The position numbers and the translations under genes are program-made. The notes below the pieces were generated by a model, which was given only the letters and a program-made list of their open reading frames with translations, was not told the DNA's origin and searched no databases. DNA of 64,000 bases from an uncultured Patescibacteria group bacterium. Its GTDB lineage: Bacteria > Patescibacteriota > Gracilibacteria > BD1-5 > UBA6164. The stretch lies in contig CAWUVK010000004.1 of the NCBI GenBank assembly GCA_963926055.1, positions 40,934 to 104,933 of the forward strand, written 5' to 3'. Below are positions 26,150-63,987 of this stretch, one piece after another; position 1 is the first letter of the stretch, and each line of letters starts with the position of its first letter.

Positions 26150-27442
26150 ATGAAACATATAAATAAATGATTTACATTAGTTGAATTGATAGTAGTAGTA
26201 ACTATTTTAGCTATTTTATCTACTATTTGATTTGTAGCATATAGTGGATATTTATCATGAGTGAGAGATACAAATAGAATTACTCAGTTAAAATCGATCT
26301 ATGATGGGTTAAAGATTGTTCAGTCGAGATCTCAATTACCATTACCTGATGATTATATAGAAATAAAATCAGGATCAAATATAATATCTTATCAATGATA
26401 TGCTGGAAATAATGTAATAGAAGCAATAGAATATTCGTCTGAATGATTAGACCCAAAAGATCAAACATATTTTACGTACAGCCTTACTGCTGATAAAAAA
26501 TATTATAGTTTAATGGCTCTGCTTGAAAATGATTTAGATGATACTCTTTCGCCAGTATGATATGCACCTAAAACTTCAGCTATAAATTATACACGTAGAA
26601 CTCCTTTTATAGAAGGGAAAAAAGTTTGAATGCTTTTAGATAATACAAATAGACCTATTCAAGAAAATAGTATTGTAAAAGATGTAGGAATATTTGATTT
26701 ACAAGATATTTGAACTGTCGATTTTCAATTATATTTAGATAATTATGAAATGTATTCATGAGATTGAGATCTATTATCTCATATGATTCATAACTATGAT
26801 TGTAAAAGAATAAAAGATTTAAAATGAAGTTCGCAATCTGGAATATATTCAATTGATCCAGATGCAGATGGAGTTACACAAAAAGTTTTTTGTGATATGA
26901 CGACAGATGGTTGAGGATGGACATTTGCTACTATGCTTGCTGATACTACAACACAAAATTTATTTTCAGAATTGAATGTGAATAATACTGAATTTATTAC
27001 CAGTATTAAAAAAGATATTTATACAAAATGAAAATTATCAAATGTTTGGGTAGATGATAGAAATAGAGATATTTTATTACAATGTTTCTCATCTGAACCA
27101 GAACATAAATGATATGAAACTCCTGTGATTATCTATGATTTTTTATGAACAGAAAAAAATAATTTAACAAAAATCAGTAAACAAAATACTCAATTTTCAT
27201 CAAAAAATTTAATAGTAAAGTGGAAAAATAGAACCTTTATAGCAGATGTTTTATATGAAGATGCATCAGATAATGAAACTATGATTATCACTACAAAAGA
27301 CGATAAAGATGACATTTTTTATATTCAAAATGATAGATTAGCTACTTATCAGTATGCTGAAGAAACTGGACCAGCATATTCAGACCCGTTAAAATATAAA
27401 TCTTTTTCTGATGAAGTTTATTGTGTTTCAGCAATTAGATAA
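26150..27442 (+). CDS. type IV prepilin fused to a fibrinogen-like (GGGWT) C-terminal domain
   Basis: 430 aa. The leader MKHINK precedes G/FTLVELIVVVTILAIL, and the cleavage-site Gly is the TGA at 26168-26170. The C-terminal half carries CKRIKDLKGSSQSGIYSIDPDADGVTQKVFCDMTTDGGGWT (about 26801-26925). Confidence 0.8.
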
Positions 27443-37511: not shown

Positions 37512-39848
37512 ATGCAAGATTTACAAAAAATATTACAAGAAAAATTTGGTTTAGAAGATTTTAGAGAATGACAAAGAGAAGTTATTGAAAGTGTTGTTTG
37601 AGGAAATGATACGATTGTTTTTATGCCAACATGAGGATGAAAATCTTTGACGTACCAACTTCCAGGAATTGCAAAAAAATGAGTTGCTGTGATAATTTCA
37701 CCACTTATTTCGTTGATGAAAGATCAAGTAGATAAACTCAATGAACTAGGCTTAAGAGCTGAATTAATAAATTCTACGATTTCGTATCACGAACAACAAA
37801 TGATTCTCAATGAATTATCAGCAACATCTTGAGACGAAGAAAATCCAATCAAATTTTTATATGTTGCTCCAGAACGTCTTAATTCTGGAGATTTTTCTCG
37901 TGTATTACAAAAAACTCCTATCAGTTTAATCGCCATTGATGAAGCGCATTGTATTTCTCAATGGGGGCATGATTTTCGTCCGAGTTATATGAAAATAAAA
38001 GGATTTATTCAAAACCTCAGAAGTGTTAATCATTTTCCAGTTATAGCTTTAACGGCAACGGCTACAAAAAAGGTAAGAGCTGATATAGTCGGAAGAATCT
38101 GACTTGAAAATTATAATACGTTTACAAAATGATTCGATAGAAAAAATATTATTACTATTGTACGTGAACTTTCGAAAAAAGAAGAAAAAATGCAAAAAGT
38201 TTATGAAATAGTTCAAAATACACCAGGAAGTGGAATTATATATTGTTCGAGTAGAAAAGTAACCAAAGAAATTTATGAATTTCTTTCTCAAAATGATATT
38301 TCTGTTGGGATTTATACCGGTGAAATGTCAGCTGATCAAAGAGAATCAATGCAACAAAATTTCATGGATTCAAAATTAAAAGTTATCGTGGCAACGAATG
38401 CATTTGGTATGTGAATCGATAAAAAAGATATTCGTTTTGTGGTGCATTATAATCTTCCTGGAAGTATTGAAAATTATTATCAAGAAGTCGGGAGGGCTGG
38501 TCGTGACGGGAAAAAATCATTTGGTGTGGTTATTGCGAGTTATGGAGATACAAAAATTCAAGAATTTTTTATTGAAAATTCGCATCCACCAAAAGAAGAA
38601 ATTCTTCAGCTGTATGATTATCTTTATAAAAATGCGAAAGTCTGAGAATGAAAAAATACTCAAATCCAAGAAACATATATGCAAATGGCAAATAATTCTG
38701 GGATAAATAATGATTTAAAAGTCGGAACGATTATTAAAACGCTGGAAAAATATGGAATTCTTCAAAGAGGTATTTCTGGTGAATTAGACGAATCATTTCG
38801 TGGGAGATGAGTAACCTTAATTCAAGAAAAAAGAAAACCAGAACATATCATGGTAGATTGGAAACACCAAAATTTACTCAAAGAAGAAGCCTATTTCAAA
38901 CTCGAAAAAATTAAAAAATTACTTTTTTATCCAAGTTGTAGAAAACGTTTTATTCTCGAATATTTTGGAGACGAAGAAGACCTTAAAACACTTTCTGATA
39001 ATTGTGGATTGTGTGATTATTGTCTAGAAAAATCTAAATTACAATCAGGAAAAATGGAAAATCTCGTAGCTCTTTCAGTTTTTGAAATTGTACTTGATGT
39101 GGTTTCAAAATTTGATAAAAAATATTGAGCGAAACTCATGGTAAAATTTTTACGGGGTAGTGCTGACGCGAGAATGTCAGAGTGGGGAATGGATAAACAT
39201 GAAATGTATGGAGTGTTAAGTGAATATACGCCAGATCTCGTTGAAGGATTAATAGAATGATTGATTCAACATGATTATTTAGAAAAAACCACAGGACAAT
39301 ATCCACTTTTAGGACTGACTAAAGTTGGTTTTGCTGCACTAAAAAGAGAAGATATTCTCAAAGAAGATGAACCAAATCTTCAAGAATACCTTCATATGAA
39401 AGTAAAAAATGGAGCATTTAAAAAAGCAAAAACAAACACTTCAAAAACTCCAGGAGTTAAAAAACCAAAATGAGCAACGTACAAAGAAACTCTTGCTTTG
39501 ATGGAAAAATATACCCTCACCCCTAACCCCTCTCCCTTGGGGGAGAAGGGAACTGATTTCCAAGATGTTATTAGTTTTGTTTCAGACCAAAGATGATTAG
39601 GAAAAACAACTATTGAATCACATATAGTGACGCTTTATGAATCTGGAGATTTGAGTTTAAATACGGTTTTAAAATTTACAGAATTTTCAAATTTGAAAAT
39701 AATTAAAACTATTATTTCACAAAATTTTACTGGAAGTGTCGAAGCACTCAGACCAGTGAAAGATTTACTCGAAGAAAATGGTCACAAAGATATTCCATAT
39801 TTTGATATCAAACTCGCAGTGAGTATGATGCAAAAATGAGATTTATAA
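37512..39848 (+). CDS. recQ: ATP-dependent DNA helicase RecQ
   Basis: Six track fragments in one frame fuse to 778 aa. Walker A is MPTGGGKSL, with TGA at 37632-37634 and 37638-37640. Other motifs are [45 protein letters not shown] and the Zn-binding CRKR...CGLCDYC. The C-terminal about 100 aa is not an obvious HRDC domain. Confidence 0.93.
39514..39552. repeat. GC-rich palindromic island inserted in frame in recQ
   Basis: CCCTCACCCCTAACCCCTCTCCCTTGGGGGAGAAGGGAA. The hairpin is CCC-C-TCTCCC / GGGAGA-A-GGG (39528-39550). The opposite strand reads GGGAGAGGGGTTAGGGGTGAGGG. The island encodes [12 protein letters not shown]. Confidence 0.7.
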
Positions 39849-52035: not shown

Positions 52036-53859
52036 TTACTCAACCGTTACAGATTTTGCTAAATTTTGTGGTTTATCAACATCTTTTCATAATTTTTTAG
52101 CCATCTCAACACTAAATAACCAAAGAGGAATTAACGGTAAAAATGGTGTGAGTAATTCATGCGTTTCAGGTATTTCTATTGTATCATTATAGATTTCTCT
52201 ATATGTATCATTTTTTGAAATAACTCATAAAATTGTTCCATTTCTTGCTCAAATTTCTTTTATATTTGAAATTGATTTTTCTCTTAAAGTTCACATTGGA
52301 TTTATTGCTACAACAGGAAAATTTTCGTGAATAAGTGCCAGTGGTCAATGTTTTAATTCTCATGTTGAATATGCTTCAGCATGTAAATATGTTAATTCTT
52401 TAAGTTTCAGGCTACATTCAGCAGCAGTTCCTTGTAAAATATTTCTTCCAAGATAAAAGAAATTATTATACTTTTTATATTTTTCAGCTAGATCACTATA
52501 ATTTTGAGATTCTGCTAATTGTGTTTCAAGTTGAGCTGGAAGTTCTCATAATTTTTCTATAATATTTTTTGCATCTTTCATTTGTAGATTTCTTTCTCCA
52601 CCAATTGAAATGGCCATTGTGAGTAATACTGCTAATTGCCCAACAACATTTTTAGTAGAAGCAACTCATACTTCGATTCCAGAGTGAGTATACAGTCACA
52701 TATCGCACATTCTTGCAATAGTACTTCAAACAACATTGACAATTCAAAATGTCATACAATCTTTTTGTTGAATCATTTTTACACATTCTCTCACGTCGGC
52801 TGTTTCTCATGATTGAGAAATAACAATATAAAGAGTTTTTTTATTTGGAATAAATTTTTCGTATAAAAATTCTGAACTTATTCTCACTTCAGTTTGAATA
52901 TCTGCGAGTTCTTTAAACCAACTAGCTCCAACTACACCAGCAAAATAACTTGAACCTGATGCTATAATTTCTATTCTATCAAAATCTATTTCATTGAGTT
53001 GATTGAGTGTTTCGTTTTGAATAGTTTTTGTTTCAAAATTAATTCTTCCGTTGAGAGAATTTCTTAAAACGGTAGGAATTTCATGAATTTCTTTTTCAGT
53101 AAATGTTTCAAATAATCATTTATCTGCAGCTTGAAATCTATCATCAACTTCTTCAAAATCTTTTTCTACTTTATTTCCAAGAGAAAAAACTTCATATTTT
53201 CCATCTTTAATTACGACTGTTTCTCTGTCTTCTAGGGTAGTAAATTGTGTAGCAACATGACTTACTGCATTTATATCACTTGATAAAAAAACTCAATCTT
53301 GGCCAATTCAAACGATCATAGGACTTCATAATTTTGCTCCGACAAGAGTATCAGGATTTTGTTTATCAATAACAGCTAGAGCATAAGCTCAGACTAATTT
53401 TTCCGTAACTTTTTCCAGTGTAGAAATACTATTTCCATCAAATAATTCTTCGAATAATTTTGCAATTACTTCTGTATCTGTTTGAGAATAAAAATTATAT
53501 TTTTCTTGTAATTCAGCTTTTAAGGTCATATAATTTTCTATAATTCCATTATGGACTACAAAAAATCTTTCATTTTGTGAATAGTGGGGATGAGTATTTT
53601 CTTGTGTAACTTTCCCGTGAGTTGCCCATCTAGTATGAGCAATTCCATTTGAATATGAAATATTTTTATCTATATTTTTTTCTACTTGTGTGGCTAAGTT
53701 TGAAACTTTCCCAACAGCTTTTTCTACTACAAATTCTCATGAATTATTTATTGAAAATAATCCGGCAGAATCATATCATCTGTATTCTAAATTTCTTAAT
53801 CCTTCTATCAAAAAAGGAACGGTATTATTTTTTCCATTGTACGCAAATATTCCACACAT
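52036..53859 (-). CDS. glmS: glutamine--fructose-6-phosphate aminotransferase
   Basis: 607 aa with TGA read as Gly. The N-terminus is MCGIFAY. Other motifs are [19 protein letters not shown], two SIS domains (SQSGETADV) and the C-terminal LAKSVTVE. Confidence 0.95.
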
Positions 53860-56048: not shown

Positions 56049-57170
56049 TTGGTTCATAAAATAAACACTAAAGCTAGGATTCAAAGGCATCTGAGAATCT
56101 ATAATGATTCTACTGTGAGTACATCCAATAATGCAGGAACGTTTAAAAAAGGAGTGAATTCTATTAATTTTAATATTGTATTTCTTATTGTAGTGGTATT
56201 ATTTCCATTTTACCCTACGTTTGCATCATTTGTACATGGAAACAATGAAGCAGAATTTGATAGATGAGATATTAATGAAGATTCTATTTTAAGTGCGTAT
56301 TTTTCAGATGGAGAAGACTTTAGTGATGCACAATTCACTAATGCACCAATTATTTCTCAAGCAGATACTTTTTTATCAATCAATACACTTTTAAATGATG
56401 AAAGAGATCTTACAGGTACAAATGAAATCATTGATTATGAAGTTCAATCAGGAGAATCATTTTCAACAATTGCATCAAAACATCAAGTAACAGCTTCATC
56501 AATTATGTGGGCTAATAATTTTAATTCATCTCATATATTACAACCTGGAGAATTAATAAAAATACCCCCAGTTACCGGAATTATTTATACTGTTAAATCA
56601 TGAGATAATGTTGCTAAAATAGCAAAAAATTATTCAATCGAAGAATCAGATATTTTAGAACAAAATTTACTTGCTTCAAACCAAGAATTAAAAGTCTGAC
56701 AAGAACTTGTGCTTCCAGGAGCAAAGAAAAAAATAATTATTACTAAAAAACCAGCAGTTCCAGCTAATAAGCCAGCTTATAGTTTTACTCAATGAGGTCA
56801 AAGTAATTATGTAAATACAAAAGGGAAATATAATCTTGTATGGAGAAAACCTTTTTCAGGTGTGGGATGAAACTGTACCTGGTATGTGGCTTCATATAAA
56901 AATGTTGATTGGAGGTGAAATGCTAATCAATGGTTGAGAAATGCAAGAGCAAAGTGACATCCTACATGAATGACTCCTCAAACAGGAGCTATAGTAGTTT
57001 TAGACGGGAGATGATATAATCCATGGTATGGACATGTAGCAATCGTAATGGAAGTAAAAGCAGATTCACTGATTGTGTCAGATATGAACTACAGAAGACT
57101 CTATGAAGTTACCTATAGAGAAATACCAAAAAACGATAGAGCAATTCAATGATACATTTACGTAGACTAA
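56049..57170 (+). CDS. LysM (x2) + CHAP peptidoglycan hydrolase
   Basis: 373 aa in the frame of track ORF 56049-56267. It has an N-terminal TM helix. The LysM repeats are YEVQSGESFSTIASKHQV and YTVKSGDNVAKIAKNYSI. CHAP motifs are GNCTWYVA and WYGHVAIV. The start is a TTG at 56049 and is uncertain. Confidence 0.85.
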
Positions 57171-57330: not shown

Positions 57331-57360
57331 TTGACTTTTGTTAATTAAAGATGATATAAT
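57331..57360 (+). promoter_or_regulatory. sigma-70-like promoter of the giant gene
   Basis: TTGACT (57331-57336), an 18-nt spacer, then an extended -10 TGATATAAT (57352-57360). Confidence 0.45.
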
Positions 57361-57424: not shown

Positions 57425-60400
57425 ATGAAAAATTTTTATATGTGAATTAAATTATTTTTTAGTTTATTATTTTCTCTTTTTCTTCCCATAGGATATTTAT
57501 ATGCAGACTGTACTATACCTAATGGTACAGGAGTAGAAAATATTGAATATGTACATAAATGGGCAAGTGCTAATATACTAGCAGACACTAGTAGTTGGAG
57601 AGACTGTAATTCAAATGATACATTTTGATCTATATGTACCCCATGAGATAGATGTAAATACAGCAGTTTTATGTGAACAGATGGTAAATTTTGTCAGCAA
57701 ACAACTCAAATAAAATCAAGTGAATGTGAGATTACTAGTTGTGATGAGTGATATATACTTAGTTGAGATAGTTGTATTGAAGATACTTCTGGATGATCTT
57801 GTGTATACAGTTATTCAAGTTCATGTTCTCAATGATATTCATATAATTCATCTACAAACAAATGTGAATTAATAAATGTAGCAAGCCCTTGTCAGTCTGG
57901 TTTTACATATAATTCAAGCACTTGAAAATGTGAAGATAGTTGGACTTGAAAAGGTTTTTGTGAAGAAAGCTGATTTAAGGCTACTTGAGATAATTTAAAT
58001 TGTGAAAAAAGAATTGTTTCAGACCCATTCTACATTGGAGGAGATATTTATAACAACTGAATATTAGCTTGTGGAACATGAACATCTTATAATGTTATTT
58101 CAAAAAAATGTGAATGATTTATTACAAATAATGAATCTCCAAAATGTAATATGTATATAGATTCATTTTATGATTCAGATAATTGGACAACAATTAGAAA
58201 CACTCAATTCCAATGAAATAAAACTGGTTCAAATAATAAATGTGTTTGAAAAAAAATAAAAAATTATTCATGTACGTCTTGATTTATACTAAATTCATCC
58301 ACTAAACAGTGTGAAAAAAAAGAACAACAAAATCCATCATGTTCTATAGGTAACCTTATTACTAGTTGACCAAATGAATGAAAATGTGAATTAGAATCTA
58401 ACTGTTGAGTCGATTCAGTTAATTGAGGTTGGAGTGATTATTCTTATGGATGATGGTCAATTTGTGATACTTCCACAGGTACTAAAACTAGACAATGAAC
58501 TAGAACATGTACGAACCCTACACCATTTTGAGGTTGATCAGATTGTATCTGAGCCAATCAAAATACAGAATCTACAACGTGTAGTGTAAATGCGTCTTGT
58601 TGAGCAAGTGTAAATACTTGTAATACATGAACCTTTTCTGACCGTACTGATTCTAATTGAATGGCAGTGTGGAGTTGTGTAGGATTAAATTCATGAGAAA
58701 ATAAAATTTGTCAATATAATACAGATAATACAGCTCCAACAGGTACAGTATCATATTCACCTTCAAGTTGGACAAATCAAAATGTAACTATTAGTGTATC
58801 ATGTAGTGATAGTGGATCATGATGTGATCAACCTACATATTCAAAAACTGTGACTTTAAATGGAGCTTGAAATATCACTATTAGAGATAAAGTATGAAAC
58901 ACTAGAAATATTTCATATAATGTTACAAATATAGATAATACACCACCAAGTTGAGAAGTATCTTATACTCAAAATTCTTCTACTTGAAATGTAGTAATCA
59001 CAGTTGAGTGTAGTGATAGTGGATCATGATGCAAGCAATCTACATATACAAAATCAGTAAGTTCAAATGGTACCGGCATAATCTCTATTGCAGATAATGC
59101 TTGAAACTCTAGCAATGTTTCATACAATGTTGTAAATATAGATAATATAGCACCCACAGGAAAAGTTTCGTACTCACCATCAAATTGGACAAATTGAAAT
59201 GTAGTAATCACAGTTGAGTGTAGTGATAGTGGATCATGATGTAATCAATCTACATATACAAAATCAGTAAGTTCAAATGGTTCTGGTATAATTACTATTT
59301 CAGATAATGCCTGAAATACAAAAAATATATCATATAATGTTACAAATATAGATAAAGTAGCTCCAACAGCTACAATATCTCATAATCAAGGATGGTATAA
59401 CAATATACAAACTATTACTTTTTCAGCAAAAGATACTGGATGAAGTAGGTTAAAACGAATATATTTGCAAGAAAGTGTAAATGGTTGAAATTATACTTAT
59501 GTTTCAGCAGCGAATTATGATAATTTAAATTCATCTACAAATGTAACAAAAACATTTACTCGCTCTGCTATAAATGGAAATAATTATAAATATAGATTAA
59601 TATCTTGGGATTATACAGGACAATATAGTATTGTATATGGACCAAATTCAGCAATATATTTTGATACTGTTGCTCCAGATGAACCTAATATAAATTCATC
59701 TACGCATCAAAATAATGTGTGGTTAAATAATAATAATCCTTCTTTTTGAATATCAAAAAATAATGTAGGACCAAGTAATTCTACAAATTATTATTGTATA
59801 GATACAAATAATAGTTGTGATCCAAATATATCTTGAGATTATAAATCATATACTAATTTATCAAATGGTGTTTGATATTTTAGAGCTAAAACGTGTGATA
59901 CTGGTTGATGTAGCGGTGTAAAATCGTTTACAATTAAAACAGATATGACAAAAGCTACATGATCATTAGATTATAATACAGGTTGGTATAATAAACAGCA
60001 AATAATTTCTTTTTGAGCTACAGATACTGGATGAAGTAAATTAAAAAGAATTCGGTTACAGGTGAGTAAAGATGGAAATTCTTTTGAATATATTGCAAAT
60101 ACAGATTATAATAATCTTAACACAGATAGTATATATAAAGAATATATCCAAATTCCTAATACTAATATAATTGATAATACTCAATGAGATGTAGTGGAAA
60201 CTCCTTTAGATAATTACGAAGCTACACCTATTGATCAACAACCTGGTATTGATATTCCAAGTTCATGAAATCCAGATTCAACAATATCAAATCCTACTAT
60301 TCCTGACAATCAAATACAACCGAATGATCCTTCGGAAAATGCTATTATGTTTCAATCACAAAACATAGCATACCAAGTTAATATGGATGAAAAAACTTGA

Positions 60401-63400
60401 GAATTAAATAATTATCAATATTTATTTTATCTTCCTACTTCTTTAACTTCTTTAAATAATAGTGGTTATAAGTATAGGCTTATTGTTTGGGATAATGCTG
60501 GAAATATAACTTTTGTACCTGGACCAAGTGGAACAATTAATTTTGATACTATAAAACCTACTGTTTGAGCAACTAATTCGGATGAAAATCTATGGAAAAA
60601 CACCAAAGAAACAGTTACATTAAGTGCTGGAGATCAATGATGAAGTGGAGTTAAATATTCTAAATATATCTGGAATAATAATTCATGTGTAACTAATTGA
60701 GTACTATACTCAAATGGTGATACTACTACGATTCCAGCAGAATGAAAGAATACATTATATTTATGTGCAAGTGATAATGCAGGAAATATACAAACCTGGT
60801 CAGGTATTTATAAATTTGATGAAACAAATCCAGAAGTGAATCATAATTATTTATTTGATGATACATGGACAAATGCATCAAGTGTTATTAATTTTAAAGC
60901 AACTGATCCAAATCCTACTATTCATTCTGACATTAAAGAGACAAAATATTGTAGAAATTCTGAATGTAATCCAAATATTTCTGGAAATAGTATTACTTTG
61001 ACTTTAGATGATGAAAGTATTTACAGATTTCAAACTATTGATCATGCTGGAAATAAAAGTCCTATAAAAGAAGTAAGTGTAAAAATTGAAGATAATACAC
61101 CAAATATATCTGTAGATTTCACTGATACAATTGGACAAAATTATACAGCTTGAAATTGGATAAACTCAAATATAAATGCAAAAATAAATTGTAGAGATAC
61201 AGATGAATCTATAAATTCAGGCTGTAATCCAGATACATATCAATTTAATCTTACAGATAATAAAGATACATGTTTAAGTAATGTAAGTTGATTTGAAAAC
61301 TATACATCTCAATGAGTAAATATTACAACATTAAATAATACAAATAAAGTTCTCTATATTTGTATGAGAGCAAAAGATTTTGCAGAGAATGGATATAGTT
61401 ATTCAGATGTGTATGAAGTAAAAATAGATAAAATTATTCCAAATTATGAAGATATTTCAGTAAATTCTTGATATCCAGATACAAATAGTAAATTACATGC
61501 AAGTGAAAGAGAGTTGTCATATTCTATTGATGATAAATCATGAGCTCCAATAGTAAAAATAGAATGATACTTTGAAGATTATGAAAATAATGATTCATTT
61601 ACTCTTTCTAAAACATCTTCTTGAAATACTTTAACTTTCATGTGAAATATGACAAAAGTTGATAATGAGGAAAGTATATCAGATGGTATGAGAACCTATA
61701 GTTTTCATATTACTAAAATTGAAGATCAAGCGGGAAATAGTATTTCTAGAAATATAACTAACCCTATAAAAACGTATAATTATAATGTTTATGCAAATAT
61801 AGATTCTAATCTAAAAATTTCATTAGTAAAAAATGATTTAAACTCTCATAATATTGCCAATGGAGAAATTAATAATATGAATATTGAAGTTAGAGATGAA
61901 TTTAATAATATAATTATACCAATTGCAAATATTTGAAGAAAAGTAAATATGGTTTTTAGTGGACAAAATACATTAAAATTAAATCAATATAATACTATAA
62001 ATTCAGATTCCTCAATATTTGTGAATATTCCAAACTCAGAGACATTATTTAAAAATGATATTTTTAACTCTTGAGATAATCAATACAATAATTTGCTTTC
62101 AAATAATTGAATATATACTTTTGAATACAAAGTTTATACTCCAACATTTAATGGAATAAAAACAAATGGCCAACAATATGTAAATGGTTGAGCTCATATT
62201 AGTGAAATCGAAGTAAAAACTCAACAAGATTTAGGTATAAACAATGTTTCAGAAACTGAATTTGTGTGAAATAAAATTGAACCAAATATTGATTTTGATT
62301 TTGCACCATTAATTTCAACTCAATTTGACTGAGATTTTTCTAAAAATTATTCTTTGAATCAAGATTTAGAAAATATAATTTCTTTTATAAATACAGATTC
62401 TAGTAAACCACTTTCAAACCAAAAAGTATTTTTATGATTTGGAAAAGCAACTCAAAATACTAATGGTACGCAAGAAAATTTAAATTTAGTAGTAAATTGA
62501 AGTAGTATTTCTGAATGACATCAAACAAATATTACAAATTTAAAAAGTTTTGATAATTTTAATCAAAAAAGTTTTAGCTCTGAAATTAAACAAACAAAAG
62601 AGAGTTTAACGGATAATGAAAAAAAGCATTATATTTCAACTCATATTTGATATACTTTAGATGGAAATAATATTTTTTACAATAGTGATATTATTTGAAA
62701 AACGAATTATTCTGCGGGAACACTTTTAGATAGTTCTACAAATCTTTGAGTAAAAGTACTTTGAAATGTACAATCAAAGAATCAAACAGATATTTCTGAT
62801 AATCAATCTGAAACTGATATTTATCAATTATGAAATAATACAAAAGCTGATTTAAAAGAAAAAATTAAGAAAAATGTAGCTGAAATTTCAATGAATGTAT
62901 CTGCTGAGGAAGTTTCACAAATTACAAATATTTGATGAAATTCTTGGGATAATTCAATAATTGCTCCAAAGTTATCAAATCAAAAAATATTATTAACAAA
63001 ATGAGAAGTAAAATTATCTTCAGCACAAAAATATACAGGGAAGAAAACATTAGTAATACAATGATGAAACCTTTATATAACTGAAAATCTTTTAGCTTCA
63101 AATAAAGTAAATGATATTTTATGAATTATAGTTCTGGAAGATGAAAATGGAAATGGTTGAAATGTTTATATAGATCCAAGTGTAACAGCTTTAGAAGCAG
63201 TAATTTTTGCTGATAAATCTTTATTAAATTACGATGGAAGTAATGTAGTTACAGATGGAAGACAATTAAAAAATCAATTTTATTTCTATTGAACATTGTT
63301 TAGTGAAAATACACTTTGAGGATATGTTTCTCAACAATGTCCATATTTTGTTTCTAATTGTGATTTTGATACAGCTGAAAAATATGATTTAAATTTTCTA

Positions 63401-63565
63401 AGATCATATTATGTCTATGATTCAAATGATGATGGAAATTTAGATGCAGCAAACTGAAATTCATATTTCAATTCTTGAGATGCATATTTTGCTTATCCTG
63501 TTATATTCGAATATAACTCTAATATCCAAAATAATCCTCCAGATTTATTTGAAATTAATCAATAA
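57425..63565 (+). CDS. giant secreted surface protein (about 2046 aa): Cys-rich EGF-like modules, TSP1-like repeat, tandem Ig-like domains
   Basis: This is one frame (track fragments 60836-61153 and 61649-61936 are in frame), open only with TGA read as Gly, from ATG at 57425 to TAA at 63563-63565. It has a signal peptide. Repeated modules have the form C..G[YF]..N....KCE. The TSP1-like segment is GGWSDYSYGGWSICD...R.GTRTCTNPTPFGGGSDC. Many ..W.N..V.I....D..SG. domains follow. Confidence 0.85.
58724..59353 (+). repeat. three tandem ~210-nt (70-aa) domain repeats inside the giant gene
   Basis: Copies 2 and 3 are near-identical over more than 80 nt (TTGAAATGTAGTAATCACAGTTGAGTGTAGTGATAGTGGATCATGATG...), starting at 58984 and 59194. 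Each copy encodes APTG.VSYSP..WTN.NV.I.V.CSDSGSGC....Y.K.V..NG.G.I.I.D..GN...ISYNV.NID. Confidence 0.85.
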
Positions 63566-63592
63566 AAAAACTCGCAATTGCGAGTTTTTTTA
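63564..63592. terminator. bidirectional rho-independent terminator
   Basis: The stem AACTCGCA pairs with TGCGAGTT (63569-63586), with an A run before and a T run after. Confidence 0.7.
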
Positions 63593-63603
63593 TTGTAATA
63601 AAA

Positions 63604-63987
63604 TTATTCTTTCATAGCATTTGAAATTTTATATACTACTTGATTTATAGGGTTGAGATTTTTATGAAGTTCTAAACGTAAATCTACATAACTTTTTTGT
63701 AATAGAGTGAGTAAATCATGAATCGGAAGATTTGTTTCATAATCATTATATGTTTTTAACGCAATCGGGTAGAGATCATATGCTTTTTGTATTTCATTTT
63801 CAATCAGATTTTTTTTCTTCTTTTCTTTTTCTATAATATCAGAAATATTATAATTTTGAGTTATTTTTTCACTATCCTCTAAATTTTTATCTTGTTGAAT
63901 TATATTTGCTGTAATTGAATTGTATTCGTTGAGATATTCTAAATAATTATGATATTCACACAGTTGAAACGTAAGCTGATCAAGCAT
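63604..63987 (-). CDS. hypothetical protein (at least 127 aa)
   Basis: Track ORF with a TAA stop and no TGA. The frame stays open upstream to the window edge, so the true start may lie outside the window. Confidence 0.5.
   Translation of the reverse strand: MLDQLTFQLCEYHNYLEYLNEYNSITANIIQQDKNLEDSEKITQNYNISDIIEKEKKKKNLIENEIQKAYDLYPIALKTYNDYETNLPIHDLLTLLQKSYVDLRLELHKNLNPINQVVYKISNAMKE

What the first reader, a model, noticed from the sequence alone, without database searches (positions are those of the whole stretch)
57425..63565. Giant (about 2046 aa) secreted protein built from eukaryote-like adhesion modules
This is a single 6.1-kb ORF that is visible only under table 25. It is built as follows:
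- A signal peptide.
- About 300 aa of Cys-rich modules of the form C..G[YF]..N(S)....KCE. Examples are CDEGYILSGDSC, CSQGYSYNSSTNKCE, CQSGFTYNSSTGKCE and CTSGFILNSSTKQCE. These are EGF-like in spacing.
- One segment matching the thrombospondin type-1 repeat pattern W..W..C...G...R.R.C..P.P..GG..C, namely GGWSDYSYGGWSICDTSTGTKTRQGTRTCTNPTPFGGGSDC (about 58424-58546).
- At least a dozen Ig-like modules with the recurring W.N..V.I....D..SG. signature, including three tandem 70-aa copies.
- A non-repetitive C-terminal region of about 600 aa.

A very large surface protein with eukaryote-type adhesion motifs is a prime candidate for host or prey attachment.
Basis: partly seen in the sequence, partly recalled or inferred. 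Interest (0 to 1): 0.7.

Follow-up and report, generated by a model that had tools for sequence, protein, structure and literature searches.

The report
Giant Gracilibacteria surface protein with thrombospondin repeat
This is a real 2046-residue secreted surface protein of an uncultured Gracilibacteria bacterium that reads TGA as glycine; it joins a genuine animal-type thrombospondin repeat and a stalk of bacterial Ig-like domains to a conserved, unannotated C-terminal core found so far only in such recoded bacteria, and it probably serves attachment to another cell.

Summary
The ORF is real. It spans 57425-63565, has 91 in-frame TGA codons and no TAA/TAG, and TGA means Gly (code 25). The public copy of this protein is translated with TGA=Trp.

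Architecture:
- A signal peptide.
- A 305-aa Cys-rich region.
- One thrombospondin type-1 repeat (TSR).
- A small Cys module.
- Nine beta-sandwich modules.
- A 708-aa C-terminal core.

The TSR call holds. The window segment alone hits human thrombospondin-1 TSR3 at E=3e-11, and essentially all top PDB hits are TSR proteins. It is a 4-Cys variant and scores below Pfam's TSP_1 cut-off.

The Ig-like call holds (DUF7743 and OmpL47-type, both above cut-off).

The EGF call does not hold. The modules are 2-Cys hairpins, cEGF is below cut-off, and there is no match to any solved EGF.

The "non-repetitive C-terminus" is the defining core of a large unannotated family. It has 1533 representative clusters, always sits at the C-terminus, and its named members are all Gracilibacteria "hypothetical proteins".

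Orthologues in two related genomes are 1752 and 1300 aa, with different module and TSR counts.

The most likely function is a modular surface adhesin: a conserved base with a variable distal tip. This is inferred, not shown.

The parts
57331..57360 (+). Promoter-like site: TTGACT, 18-nt spacer, TG-TATAAT. It lies about 65 nt upstream of the ATG.
   Evidence: 11 of 12 consensus matches, with an extended -10 TG. This is a consensus match only. An AT-rich hairpin after the upstream gene is visible by eye, but the scan did not call it a terminator.
57425..63565 (+). Complete gene, 2046 codons plus TAA, read with genetic code 25 (TGA = Gly).
   Evidence: The same protein is in public databases as P0001, translated with TGA=Trp.
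57425..57505 (+). Sec-type signal peptide, aa 1-27 (MKNFYMGIKLFFSLLFSLFLPIGYLYA | DC).
   Evidence: This is the only hydrophobic segment of the protein (Kyte-Doolittle maximum 1.85 at aa 4-22). The cleavage site is inferred from the pattern. There is no lipobox and no other transmembrane segment.
57506..58420 (+). Cys-rich N-terminal region, aa 28-332, with 24 Cys. It contains seven 2-Cys hairpin modules of the form C-x2-G-[YF]-x8-10-C-E (aa 105-323).
   Evidence: Pfam cEGF scores 24.4 bits, below its 26.6 cut-off. There are no EGF hits in PDB. The region is conserved in the L001 orthologue. In L002 it is largely replaced by two extra TSRs and shorter Cys-rich sequence.
58421..58591 (+). One thrombospondin type-1 repeat (TSR), aa 333-389. 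It is a 4-Cys variant that lacks the second and sixth canonical Cys.
   Evidence: Matches include TSP-1 TSR3 (1LSL) at E=3e-11, UNC5B/D, BAI1, C6-C8, ADAMTS and properdin. Pfam TSP_1 gives only 8.9 bits.
58592..58729 (+). Small Cys-rich module, aa 390-435, with the pattern CG..x..C..G.F....W.C.G.N.G...C. It is conserved in the L002 orthologue.
   Evidence: Seen by reading. No family match.
58730..59356 (+). Three tandem 70-aa Ig-like modules, aa 436-505, 506-574 and 575-644. Each has a Cys pair and the DxxGN...NID motif.
   Evidence: Pfam DUF7743 scores 36.3 bits (cut-off 27), with weaker Big_3_2/Big_9 matches. The module HMM gives 123-138 bits for each copy. TRF finds a 210-bp period, 3.1 copies and 77% matches.
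59357..60553 (+). Three divergent beta-sandwich-type modules, aa 645-749, 750-842 and 843-1043. The last one carries a P/N/Q/D-rich insert of about 90 aa.
   Evidence: They match positions about 94-230 of the family profile (i-E 1e-8 and 1.5e-6). Those positions form a beta-sandwich in the P0067 model. Residues 766-1055 are absent from the L001 orthologue.
60554..61438 (+). Three OmpL47-type Ig-like modules, aa 1044-1134, 1135-1225 and 1226-1338.
   Evidence: NCBIfam NF047446 scores 59.7 bits (cut-off 40) over 2 stretches. The third module is assigned by the DxAxN...ID..P motif and a weak match to the module HMM.
61439..63562 (+). Conserved C-terminal core, aa 1339-2046. It consists of four beta-sandwiches, one long helix, and a beta-rich terminal domain. 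That domain carries a Cys pair, the KYDLNFLRSYY motif and the terminal ...YPVIFEYN...NPPDLF.
   Evidence: The family profile matches at i-E 1e-185. There are 1533 representative clusters at E<=1e-3, and the core is always C-terminal. The model of homologue P0067 has pLDDT 85. There is no Pfam or PDB sequence match. Identity to L001 is 86-95% here, against 51-88% upstream.
63560..63595 (.). Bidirectional intrinsic terminator, shared with the convergent downstream gene.
   Evidence: The same hairpin follows the orthologue in L001.

Best explanation
The gene encodes a Sec-exported, modular cell-surface protein of a Gracilibacteria bacterium (genetic code 25). It most likely acts as a fibrillar adhesin.

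**Conserved base.** The C-terminal 708 aa is the core that defines a large family seen so far only in TGA-recoded bacteria. I infer that this end is the cell-proximal base. It may attach to the envelope or carry the family's common function.

**Variable extension.** The N-terminal 1310 aa is a clade-specific extension. It contains nine beta-sandwich (bacterial Ig-like) modules, which would act as a stalk. At the far end the stalk would present a disulfide-rich tip made of seven 2-Cys hairpins, one thrombospondin type-1 repeat and a small Cys module.

**Proposed ligand.** By analogy with eukaryotic TSRs, the tip would bind anionic glycans or glycoconjugates on the partner cell. Eukaryotic TSRs bind sulfated or phosphorylated glycans, including the LPS inner core in BAI1.

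**Evolution.** Modules are gained and lost between related species, as expected for a fast-evolving contact protein.

**Shown:** the ORF, the genetic code, the domain identities, family membership and module variation.

**Inferred:** surface location, orientation, binding and the ligand.
For: - **Real gene, code 25:**
- **Own promoter-like site and terminator:**
- **Export:** one N-terminal hydrophobic signal and no other transmembrane segment.
- **TSR homology:**
- **Ig-like modules above curated cut-offs:**
- **Core family:**
  - 1533 representative clusters, 303 of them at E<=1e-30.
  - The core always ends the protein, and the N-terminal extension varies from about 100 to 1100 aa.
  - Most representatives have 4-10% Trp, the signature of TGA misread as Trp.
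  - All named members are hypothetical proteins of Candidatus Gracilibacteria.
- **Structure of a core homologue (P0067, pLDDT 85):** a chain of beta-sandwiches plus a beta-rich end domain. Foldseek matches only tandem Ig/MG/FN3/Big-1 arrays, such as the PrgB Ig-like domains, the FdeC adhesin and Hoc.
- **Conservation gradient:** the core is 86-95% identical to L001; the extension is 51-88%.
- **Module indels:** orthologues are 2046, 1752 and 1300 aa long, with 1, 1 and 3 TSRs and 3, 3 and 1 copies of the 70-aa module.
- **Literature:**
  - Large surface proteins of Absconditabacteria and Gracilibacteria have been proposed to mediate host attachment (PMC8080830, PMC6851277).
  - TSRs are adhesion modules that apicomplexan parasites acquired laterally (PMC3417536).
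  - BAI1 TSRs bind the LPS inner core (bioRxiv 10.1101/2023.01.30.525907).
Against: - There are no expression, localisation or binding data.
- No known anchoring device was found: no LPXTG, no C-terminal transmembrane segment, and no SLH, CWB2 or LysM domain in this protein. The claim that the core is the cell-proximal base rests only on its conservation and its C-terminal position.
- The last roughly 230 aa of the core have no fold assignment and could be catalytic.
- The N-terminal tip could not be modelled.
- The TSR fails Pfam's own threshold and lacks one canonical disulfide.
- The host or prey of this organism is unknown.
Confidence: 0.6

Rival explanations
1. The protein is a structural envelope component rather than an adhesin. 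In this reading, the conserved core family builds or decorates the S-layer or outer fibrous coat of Gracilibacteria. The N-terminal modules are then spacers or protective decoration with no specific ligand.
For: - The core is widespread in TGA-recoded genomes and strongly conserved.
- It is an all-beta, multi-sandwich architecture of the kind seen in S-layer and coat proteins.
- The only PDB sequence hint is a surface-layer protein (4uid), and it is non-significant (E=0.23).
- Gracilibacteria are predicted to have S-layers, and Vampirococcus has a fibrous surface (PMC6851277, PMC8080830).
Against: - There is no match to any S-layer family (SLH or others).
- A TSR and a disulfide-rich tip are typical ligand-binding modules.
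- Rapid module turnover at the distal end fits recognition better than scaffolding.
Confidence: 0.18
2. The protein is a predatory effector or enzyme. In this reading, the beta-rich C-terminal domain of the core is a glycan- or cell-wall-degrading (beta-helix type) enzyme, and the N-terminal modules only target it to the prey envelope.
For: - The terminal roughly 130 aa before the last subdomain form many short strands, resembling a solenoid.
- One weak BFVD hit is to a pectin-lyase-fold protein (rank 23, TMq 0.08).
- A LysM-CHAP peptidoglycan hydrolase lies directly upstream in all three close loci.
- A distant family member sits next to a secreted SNase nuclease.
- Giant proteins of other predatory bacteria have been linked to cell-wall degradation (bioRxiv 10.1101/2023.11.21.568195).
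Against: - No catalytic family is detected in Pfam, NCBIfam or PDB, either for the core or for correctly translated homologues.
- The conserved polar residues were not mapped to a pocket.
- The CHAP gene appears to be a separate transcription unit: a hairpin follows it and a promoter-like site precedes this gene. It is also absent next to the distant member.
Confidence: 0.12
3. The long ORF is an artefact: a metagenome mis-assembly that fuses repeats, or a pseudogene that only looks open.
For: The sequence is derived from a metagenome-assembled genome and contains internal repeats.
Against: - The repeats are only 77% identical at the DNA level.
- An independent assembly (L001/P0002) has the same order of parts and the same three copies.
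- The frame stays open for 2046 codons in a 26% GC genome.
- The core is 86-95% identical to the orthologue.
Confidence: 0.02

Closest known systems
Thrombospondin type-1 repeat (TSR; Pfam TSP_1 PF00090), as in thrombospondin-1 TSR2-3 (PDB 1LSL), UNC5 receptors, BAI1, properdin, complement C6-C8 and apicomplexan TRAP/CSP
   Same: - The motif order is the same: GGW-S-x-aromatic ... W-S-x-C ... T-G ... R ... R-x-C-T-N-P-x-P-x-GG-x-x-C-x-G ... C.
- Similarity to solved TSRs is significant (E=3e-11 for the single sequence, E=6e-12 for the profile).
- It sits in an extracellular, modular protein.
- Apicomplexan parasites offer a precedent for recruiting laterally acquired TSRs for host-cell adhesion (PMC3417536).
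   Different: - The host organism is bacterial (CPR).
- It has four Cys instead of six. CSxTCG has become C-D/N-x-S-T-G, and the last Cys is missing. To my knowledge these two Cys form one disulfide in TSP-1.
- There is a 2-residue insertion in the Trp strand.
- The middle Arg of the ladder is replaced by Gly or Asp.
- It scores below Pfam's threshold (8.9 bits).
- The fold itself was not tested.
Bacterial Ig-like surface-protein modules: OmpL47-type beta-barrel domain (NCBIfam NF047446), DUF7743 (PF24893) and Big_3_2 (PF12245), as found in large Firmicutes surface proteins such as P0005 and P0010
   Same: - Tandem 70-110-aa modules begin with xAPxG and end with DxAGN...IDxxxP.
- Scores exceed the curated cut-offs.
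- The top database relatives for this part are large multi-Ig surface proteins.
   Different: - Several modules carry an internal Cys pair.
- Four of the nine modules match only the family's own profile and no curated model.
Giant or large surface proteins of Absconditabacteria and Gracilibacteria (Vampirococcus lugosii, PMC8080830; Gracilibacterium BD02T64, PMC6851277)
   Same: - They come from the same group of TGA-recoded, host-dependent CPR bacteria.
- They are large, secreted, multi-domain proteins proposed to mediate recognition of and attachment to the host.
   Different: - Those papers list WD40, PKD, DUF11, integrin, fibronectin and invasin domains and a PTD repeat.
- None mentions a type-1 thrombospondin repeat or the C-terminal core family described here.
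- P0067, a family member from the BD02T64 genome, is annotated only as a hypothetical protein.
Gram-positive fibrillar adhesins (MSCRAMM-like proteins, enterococcal PrgB, E. coli FdeC), the top structural matches
   Same: - They share the architecture of a signal peptide, a distal binding region and a stalk of tandem Ig-like domains.
- Foldseek's best hits for the core homologue are the PrgB Ig-like domains and FdeC.
   Different: - There is no LPXTG or sortase signal, no autotransporter or intimin beta-barrel, and no known wall-binding domain.
- The TM-scores are low (<=0.21 of the query) and reflect only generic tandem sandwiches.

Membership tests
Thrombospondin type-1 repeat (TSP_1 / TSR) | Score at or above Pfam PF00090's gathering threshold (21.6 bits) | tested here: not met
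   the window repeat scores 8.9 bits (E=2.3) and the three L002 repeats together score 15.4 bits. PTN_MK_C scores 17.8-21.4 bits, also below its cut-off; to my knowledge that family has a TSR-related fold.
Thrombospondin type-1 repeat (TSP_1 / TSR) | Significant and specific sequence similarity to experimentally solved TSRs | tested here: met
   the single window segment hits TSP-1 1LSL at E=3.3e-11 (best domain 33.9 bits). The top hits are almost all TSR-fold proteins; a 5-repeat profile hits UNC5B at E=6e-12; the real sequence scores 31.4 bits against a maximum of 9.9 in 200 shuffles.
Thrombospondin type-1 repeat (TSP_1 / TSR) | WxxW(xxW) tryptophan strand and an R-x-R arginine ladder | tested here: inconclusive
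   The window has W-S-D-Y plus a second W just before the first Cys, with a 2-residue insertion. L002 repeats 1 and 3 have the canonical W-T-S-W. Two of the three ladder positions are Arg (R24 and R28 are invariant); the middle one is Gly or Asp.
Thrombospondin type-1 repeat (TSP_1 / TSR) | Six conserved Cys forming three disulfides | tested here: not met
   four invariant Cys. The second Cys (of CSxTCG) and the sixth are both absent. To my knowledge these two form one disulfide in TSP-1, so the loss would be coherent.
Thrombospondin type-1 repeat (TSP_1 / TSR) | Three-stranded, layered Trp/Arg fold | not testable with these tools
The accepted public version, P0001, has Trp at 8 Gly positions of the repeat.
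EGF / cEGF domain | Six-Cys EGF pattern, or a score at or above Pfam's cut-off | tested here: not met
   Each module has 2 Cys. cEGF PF12662 scores 24.4 bits against a 26.6 cut-off, summed over 4 stretches. On the whole protein it gives E=0.99.
EGF / cEGF domain | Similarity to solved EGF-containing structures | tested here: not met
   a 12-hairpin profile finds no EGF; the best hit is a Sushi-domain hairpin of beta2-glycoprotein I at E=0.29; aa 29-332 gives no hit below E=1.
Bacterial Ig-like modules (OmpL47-type NF047446; DUF7743 PF24893) | Score at or above the curated cut-off | tested here: met
   NF047446 scores 59.7 bits (cut-off 40) in aa 1040-1350. PF24893 scores 36.3 bits (cut-off 27) in aa 436-645.
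Unnamed C-terminal core family of TGA-recoded bacteria (represented by QFR39597.1 = P0067) | Near full-length match to the roughly 710-position family profile, located at the extreme C-terminus and ending ...YP-V-I-x-EYN...PP-x-LF | tested here: met
   i-E 1e-185, profile positions 108-882 against aa 1245-2046; the same layout and the same terminal motif appear in more than 150 representatives.
Sortase-anchored (LPXTG) or membrane-anchored adhesins | C-terminal LPXTG motif plus a hydrophobic segment, or any transmembrane helix besides the signal peptide | tested here: not met
   the only hydrophobic window is aa 4-22; the C-terminus is ...NNPPDLFEINQ, with no LPXTG.
Alpha-2-macroglobulin / complement C3-C5 (many Foldseek hits) | Thioester domain (CGEQ) and a global fold match | tested here: not met
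   TMq is 0.10-0.13 and rmsd is above 35 A, so only MG-like sandwiches are shared. The window core has just two Cys (aa 1972 and 1979), so no CGEQ is present.

The most novel reading that the evidence does not exclude
A small clade of Gracilibacteria acquired an animal-type thrombospondin type-1 repeat by lateral transfer. It mounted the repeat at the tip of a lineage-specific surface fibril.

The same genome also carries a type IV pilin fused to a fibrinogen/intelectin-like lectin domain. Together these would mean that an ultrasmall episymbiont or predator recognises its partner cell with the same kinds of pattern-recognition modules that animal innate immunity uses to recognise bacteria. Examples are the BAI1 and properdin TSRs, ficolins and intelectins. 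The partner could be a Gram-negative bacterium (via LPS or other glycans) or a eukaryote.

The conserved 710-aa core would then be a previously unrecognised envelope-attachment or display platform specific to TGA-recoded CPR bacteria.
Probability: 0.15. Interest if true: 0.8.

Novelty: new variant of a known kind. Interest (0 to 1): 0.55.

Why it matters
**The open question.** Gracilibacteria are uncultured and host-dependent, and how they recognise partner cells is unknown.

**What this locus offers.**
- It gives a concrete, testable candidate for partner recognition.
- It carries a bona fide type-1 thrombospondin repeat, a domain regarded as an animal-type adhesion module. I found no report of one in CPR bacteria.
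- It reveals a large surface-protein family, defined by a 710-aa C-terminal core with no Pfam model. There are 1533 representative clusters.

**Why the family has been hard to see.** Most database copies are mistranslated, with TGA read as Trp or as a stop.

**What follows.** Retranslating these genomes with code 25 and modelling the tip and the core would allow two kinds of experiment:
- binding assays against LPS, glycosaminoglycans and glycan arrays;
- host-fishing experiments.

Tried and rejected
- **Pfam on the whole protein:** nothing usable. Only scans of separate segments gave hits.
- **The look-up of encoding contigs for P0001 and P0003:** not on record, so the source record of the window was not identified. 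The nearest genome found is a Candidatus Gracilibacteria MAG, CAXHZN010000001.1.
- **First structure job (9-sequence alignment):** unusable, with pLDDT 44.6. The second job, with 80 family members and a correctly translated homologue as target, worked.
- **A 118-sequence alignment:** too large to submit.
- **Foldseek of the whole model against PDB and BFVD:** only generic tandem Ig-like matches, with no assignment for the last 230 aa. Domain-level searches were not possible because models cannot be cut.
- **Self-BLAST of the protein:** returned only the identity hit. It was replaced by an HMM of the repeat.
- **EGF reading:** rejected.
- **Alpha-2-macroglobulin / complement reading of the Foldseek list:** rejected (low TM-scores, no thioester).
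- **Functional link to the upstream LysM-CHAP hydrolase:** considered. The synteny holds only in the close clade, and the two genes look like separate transcription units.
- **Link to type IV pili through the PilB-like ATPase downstream in L001:** considered. The two genes are separated by a stretch of sequence, and the window ends before that region.

Full report
**1. The observation**

Region 57425-63565 (+) is a single 2046-codon reading frame. It has 91 in-frame TGA codons and no TAA or TAG until the terminal TAA. With table 11 it falls into 92 pieces.

The window has 26% G+C. TAA plus TAG should therefore be about 7% of random codons, so an open frame of this length is not a chance event (about 1e-66, my arithmetic).

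Every long ORF in the window contains TGA, so the whole genome is recoded. TGA means Gly, not Trp:
- In GlmS (52036-53859, -) and RecQ (37512-39848, +), TGA falls on textbook Gly positions: YR-G-YDSAG, SQS-G-ETAD, ELKH-G-PLAL and Walker A MPT-G-G-G-KS (the motifs are from my own knowledge).
- Within the gene itself, opposite the 30 TGA codons of the C-terminal core, eight correctly translated homologues have Gly 109 times and Trp 6 times.

The TSR-like string lies exactly at 58424-58546.

A near-consensus promoter-like site (TTGACT, 18 nt, TG-TATAAT; 57331-57360) precedes the gene. A bidirectional terminator (63560-63595) follows it. The gene therefore looks like its own transcription unit.

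**2. Origin and public record**

The same protein exists in NCBI/ENA-derived collections as P0001, on a 128,562-bp contig. There, every TGA is translated as Trp, which is why it appears only 96% identical.

The nearest genome in the species-representative collection is an uncultured Candidatus Gracilibacteria MAG (L001, CAXHZN010000001.1). A second relative is labelled "Patescibacteria group bacterium" (L002).

I retranslated both orthologues with code 25. They are 1752 and 1300 aa long.

**3. Anatomy (window protein, code 25)**

| Residues | Part |
|---|---|
| 1-27 | Signal peptide; the only hydrophobic segment |
| 28-332 | Cys-rich region with 24 Cys, including seven 2-Cys hairpins C-x2-G-[YF]-x8-10-C-E |
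| 333-389 | One thrombospondin type-1 repeat |
| 390-435 | Small Cys module, conserved in L002 |
| 436-644 | Three tandem 70-aa modules |
| 645-1043 | Three divergent modules; the last has a P/N/Q/D-rich insert of about 90 aa |
| 1044-1338 | Three OmpL47-type modules |
| 1339-2046 | Non-repetitive C-terminal core |

Module borders follow the recurring [IF]D-x-x-x-P motif.

**4. The thrombospondin repeat**

The window segment alone (72 aa) hits human thrombospondin-1 TSR3 (1LSL) at E=3.3e-11, with a best domain of 33.9 bits. It then hits UNC5B/D/A, BAI1, complement C6/C7/C8, ADAMTS13/5, properdin and midkine/pleiotrophin. These make up almost the whole hit list, apart from a few weak matches at E>0.1.

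A profile of the five bacterial repeats (window x1, L001 x1, L002 x3; alignment A1) gives the same list, with UNC5B at E=6e-12.

In a control against a 25-repeat eukaryotic protein (P0008), the real sequence scores 31.4 bits for its best domain. Two hundred shuffles average -1.5 bits, with a maximum of 9.9.

The alignment covers GGW...W-S-x-C...T-G...R...R-x-C-T-N-P-x-P-x-GG-x-x-C-x-G...C.

The bacterial repeats differ from the canonical form in several ways:
- They have four, not six, Cys. The second (CSxTCG) and the last are both missing. To my knowledge those two pair with each other in TSP-1, so the loss would be coherent.
- They have two extra residues in the Trp strand.
- Gly or Asp replaces the middle Arg of the ladder.

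Pfam's TSP_1 model scores only 8.9 bits for the window repeat and 15.4 bits for the L002 triplet, against a cut-off of 21.6. The formal Pfam membership test therefore fails, although homology to solved TSRs is clear.

Among 182 family proteins collected, TSR-like repeats occur only in the window/L001/P0002 clade and the L002/P0003/P0033/P0034 clade. The repeat is thus a recent, clade-restricted addition.

I found no paper reporting type-1 repeats in CPR bacteria. The type-3 repeats reported in bacterial giant proteins are a different domain.

**5. The "EGF-like" modules**

These are 2-Cys hairpins, not 6-Cys EGF domains.
- Pfam cEGF reaches 24.4 bits summed over four stretches, below its 26.6 cut-off.
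- A profile of 12 hairpins finds no EGF in PDB; the best match is a Sushi-domain hairpin at E=0.29.
- The entire Cys-rich region finds nothing in PDB.

I therefore reject the EGF assignment. The region is best described as a disulfide-stapled hairpin array of unknown fold.

**6. The Ig-like modules**

- The three 70-aa copies match Pfam DUF7743 above its cut-off (36.3 against 27 bits), with weaker Big_3_2/Big_9 hits.
- Residues 1040-1350 match the NCBIfam OmpL47-type domain (59.7 against 40 bits, two stretches).
- The remaining modules match positions about 44-255 of the core family's own profile. Those positions form a beta-sandwich in the structural model. They therefore look like duplications of the family's own N-proximal sandwich.
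- The three tandem copies are only 77% identical at the DNA level, and the same three copies are present in an independent assembly. This argues against an assembly artefact.

**7. The C-terminal core: the main new point**

The word-indexed search found only about a dozen relatives, all without Pfam domains.

An exhaustive profile search of 1.84 billion representatives found far more:
- 1533 clusters at E<=1e-3.
- 303 clusters at E<=1e-30.
- More than 150 near full-length matches.

In all of them the core ends the protein, with the terminal motif ...YPVVIEYNPxIQxxPPPLF. The N-terminal part varies from about 100 to 1100 aa. A typical member is 820-1050 aa long.

Most representatives have 4-10% Trp and 1-3% Gly, the signature of TGA misread as Trp. 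All named members are "hypothetical protein [Candidatus Gracilibacteria bacterium]". They include QFR39597.1 from the curated complete genome of Sieber et al. 2019 (PMC6851277).

No member matches Pfam or any PDB sequence.

With an 80-sequence alignment, AlphaFold2 models the homologue P0067 well (36% identical to the window core; mean pLDDT 85, pTM 0.69). The model shows four beta-sandwiches, one long helix, a region of many short strands, and a small terminal subdomain. That subdomain holds the conserved Cys pair and the KYDLNYLRRY motif.

Foldseek finds only generic tandem Ig/MG/FN3/Big-1 arrays: PrgB Ig-like domains, FdeC, Hoc, complement MG domains and phage Big-1/FN3 proteins. TM-scores are at most 0.21. 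The last roughly 230 aa remain unassigned.

**8. Variation among relatives**

- The window and L001 proteins are 78.6% identical overall.
- The core is 86-95% identical; the N-terminal and middle parts are 51-88% identical.
- Window aa 766-1055 are absent from L001.
- Relative to the window protein, L002 has only remnants of the hairpin array, has one rather than three copies of the 70-aa module, and lacks the OmpL47-type modules. It has three TSRs.

This is the pattern expected for a conserved base carrying a fast-evolving distal end.

**9. Context**

- Upstream is a membrane-anchored LysM-LysM-CHAP peptidoglycan hydrolase (56049-57170). It is conserved at this position in L001 and L002 but not next to a distant family member, which instead sits beside a secreted SNase nuclease.
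- Downstream is a convergent small secreted protein that shares the terminator.
- Only one family member lies in the window.

**10. Mechanism**

Shown:
- the gene and its genetic code;
- an export signal consistent with Sec;
- the domain identities;
- family membership;
- modular variation.

Inferred:
- the protein is displayed on the cell surface;
- the conserved core is the cell-proximal base;
- the Ig-like modules form a stalk;
- the Cys-rich/TSR tip binds a ligand on another cell.

The inference draws on three lines of support:
- the architecture of known fibrillar adhesins;
- proposals for giant surface proteins in the sister group (PMC8080830) and in Gracilibacteria (PMC6851277);
- the known behaviour of TSRs, which are adhesion modules recruited laterally by apicomplexan parasites (PMC3417536) and which bind the LPS inner core in BAI1 (bioRxiv 10.1101/2023.01.30.525907).

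I give this reading 0.6. The rivals are a structural envelope or S-layer component (0.18), a targeted enzyme or effector (0.12) and an artefact (0.02).

**11. Verdict**

- Observation: confirmed.
- Interpretation: partly supported. The TSR and Ig-like calls hold, the EGF call does not, and adhesion is plausible but untested.
- Novelty: a new variant of a known kind. It is a modular bacterial surface adhesin-like protein with an animal-type TSR and a large, unannotated, lineage-restricted C-terminal core.
- Interest: 0.55.

Noticed in passing
window 26150-27442 (+): A 430-aa type IV pilin-like protein. It has an N-terminal methylation motif (Pfam N_methyl, 31.4 bits). Its C-terminal part matches the start of the fibrinogen-related domain: Fibrinogen_C at 32.8 bits (cut-off 22), and FIBCD1, intelectin-1 and XEEL in PDB at E=4e-7 to 1e-5, with the motif VFCDMTTDGGGWTF. 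This is a second animal-type lectin or adhesion module in the same genome, here fused to a pilin.
   Followed up: partly
whole window; public proteins P0001-P0004, P0033, P0034 and most of P0036-P0182: Public database copies of this protein and of most family members are translated with TGA=Trp (4-10% Trp, 1-3% Gly). This hides Gly-rich motifs such as the TSR and weakens profile and structure searches. Only a minority are correctly translated, for example QFR39597.1, MDD4151144.1 and MDD3720113.1.
   Followed up: yes
window 56049-57170 (+): The gene directly upstream encodes a protein with a transmembrane segment, two LysM domains (83 bits) and a CHAP peptidoglycan-hydrolase domain (58.8 bits). 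It occupies the same position in L001 and L002 but not next to the distant family member in L003. A hairpin separates it from the giant gene.
   Followed up: partly
window aa 915-1000 of the protein (about 60167-60424): A low-complexity insert rich in P, N, Q and D lies inside one Ig-like module (...TPLDNYEATPIDQQPGIDIPSSGNPDSTISNPTIPDNQIQPNDPSEN...). It sits within the 290-aa block that is absent from the L001 orthologue, and is probably a flexible loop or linker.
   Followed up: no
window aa 390-435 (58592-58729) and L002 orthologue aa about 285-330: A small conserved Cys module follows the TSR(s), with the pattern C-G-x4-5-C-x2-G-x-F-...-W-x-C-x-G-x-N-x-G-x2-3-C. It has no Pfam or NCBIfam match. 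I recall similar motifs in other large bacterial surface proteins but did not test this.
   Followed up: no
L001 12302-13663 (+); beyond the end of the window: In the closest relative, a PilB/GspE-type ATPase (Pfam T2SSE, 394 bits) lies about 1.4 kb downstream of the orthologue. The window ends before the equivalent position.
   Followed up: no
L003 8718-11462 (+): Next to a distant family member (P0028) lies a 914-aa secreted or membrane protein with a staphylococcal-nuclease (SNase) domain and repeated Cys-containing modules. This fits the nucleic-acid scavenging proposed for these bacteria.
   Followed up: no
window 63604-63987 (-): A convergent downstream gene is cut by the window end. Its full-length orthologue in L001 and L002 is a 286-aa protein with an N-terminal hydrophobic segment and no family match. 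It shares the bidirectional terminator with the giant gene.
   Followed up: no
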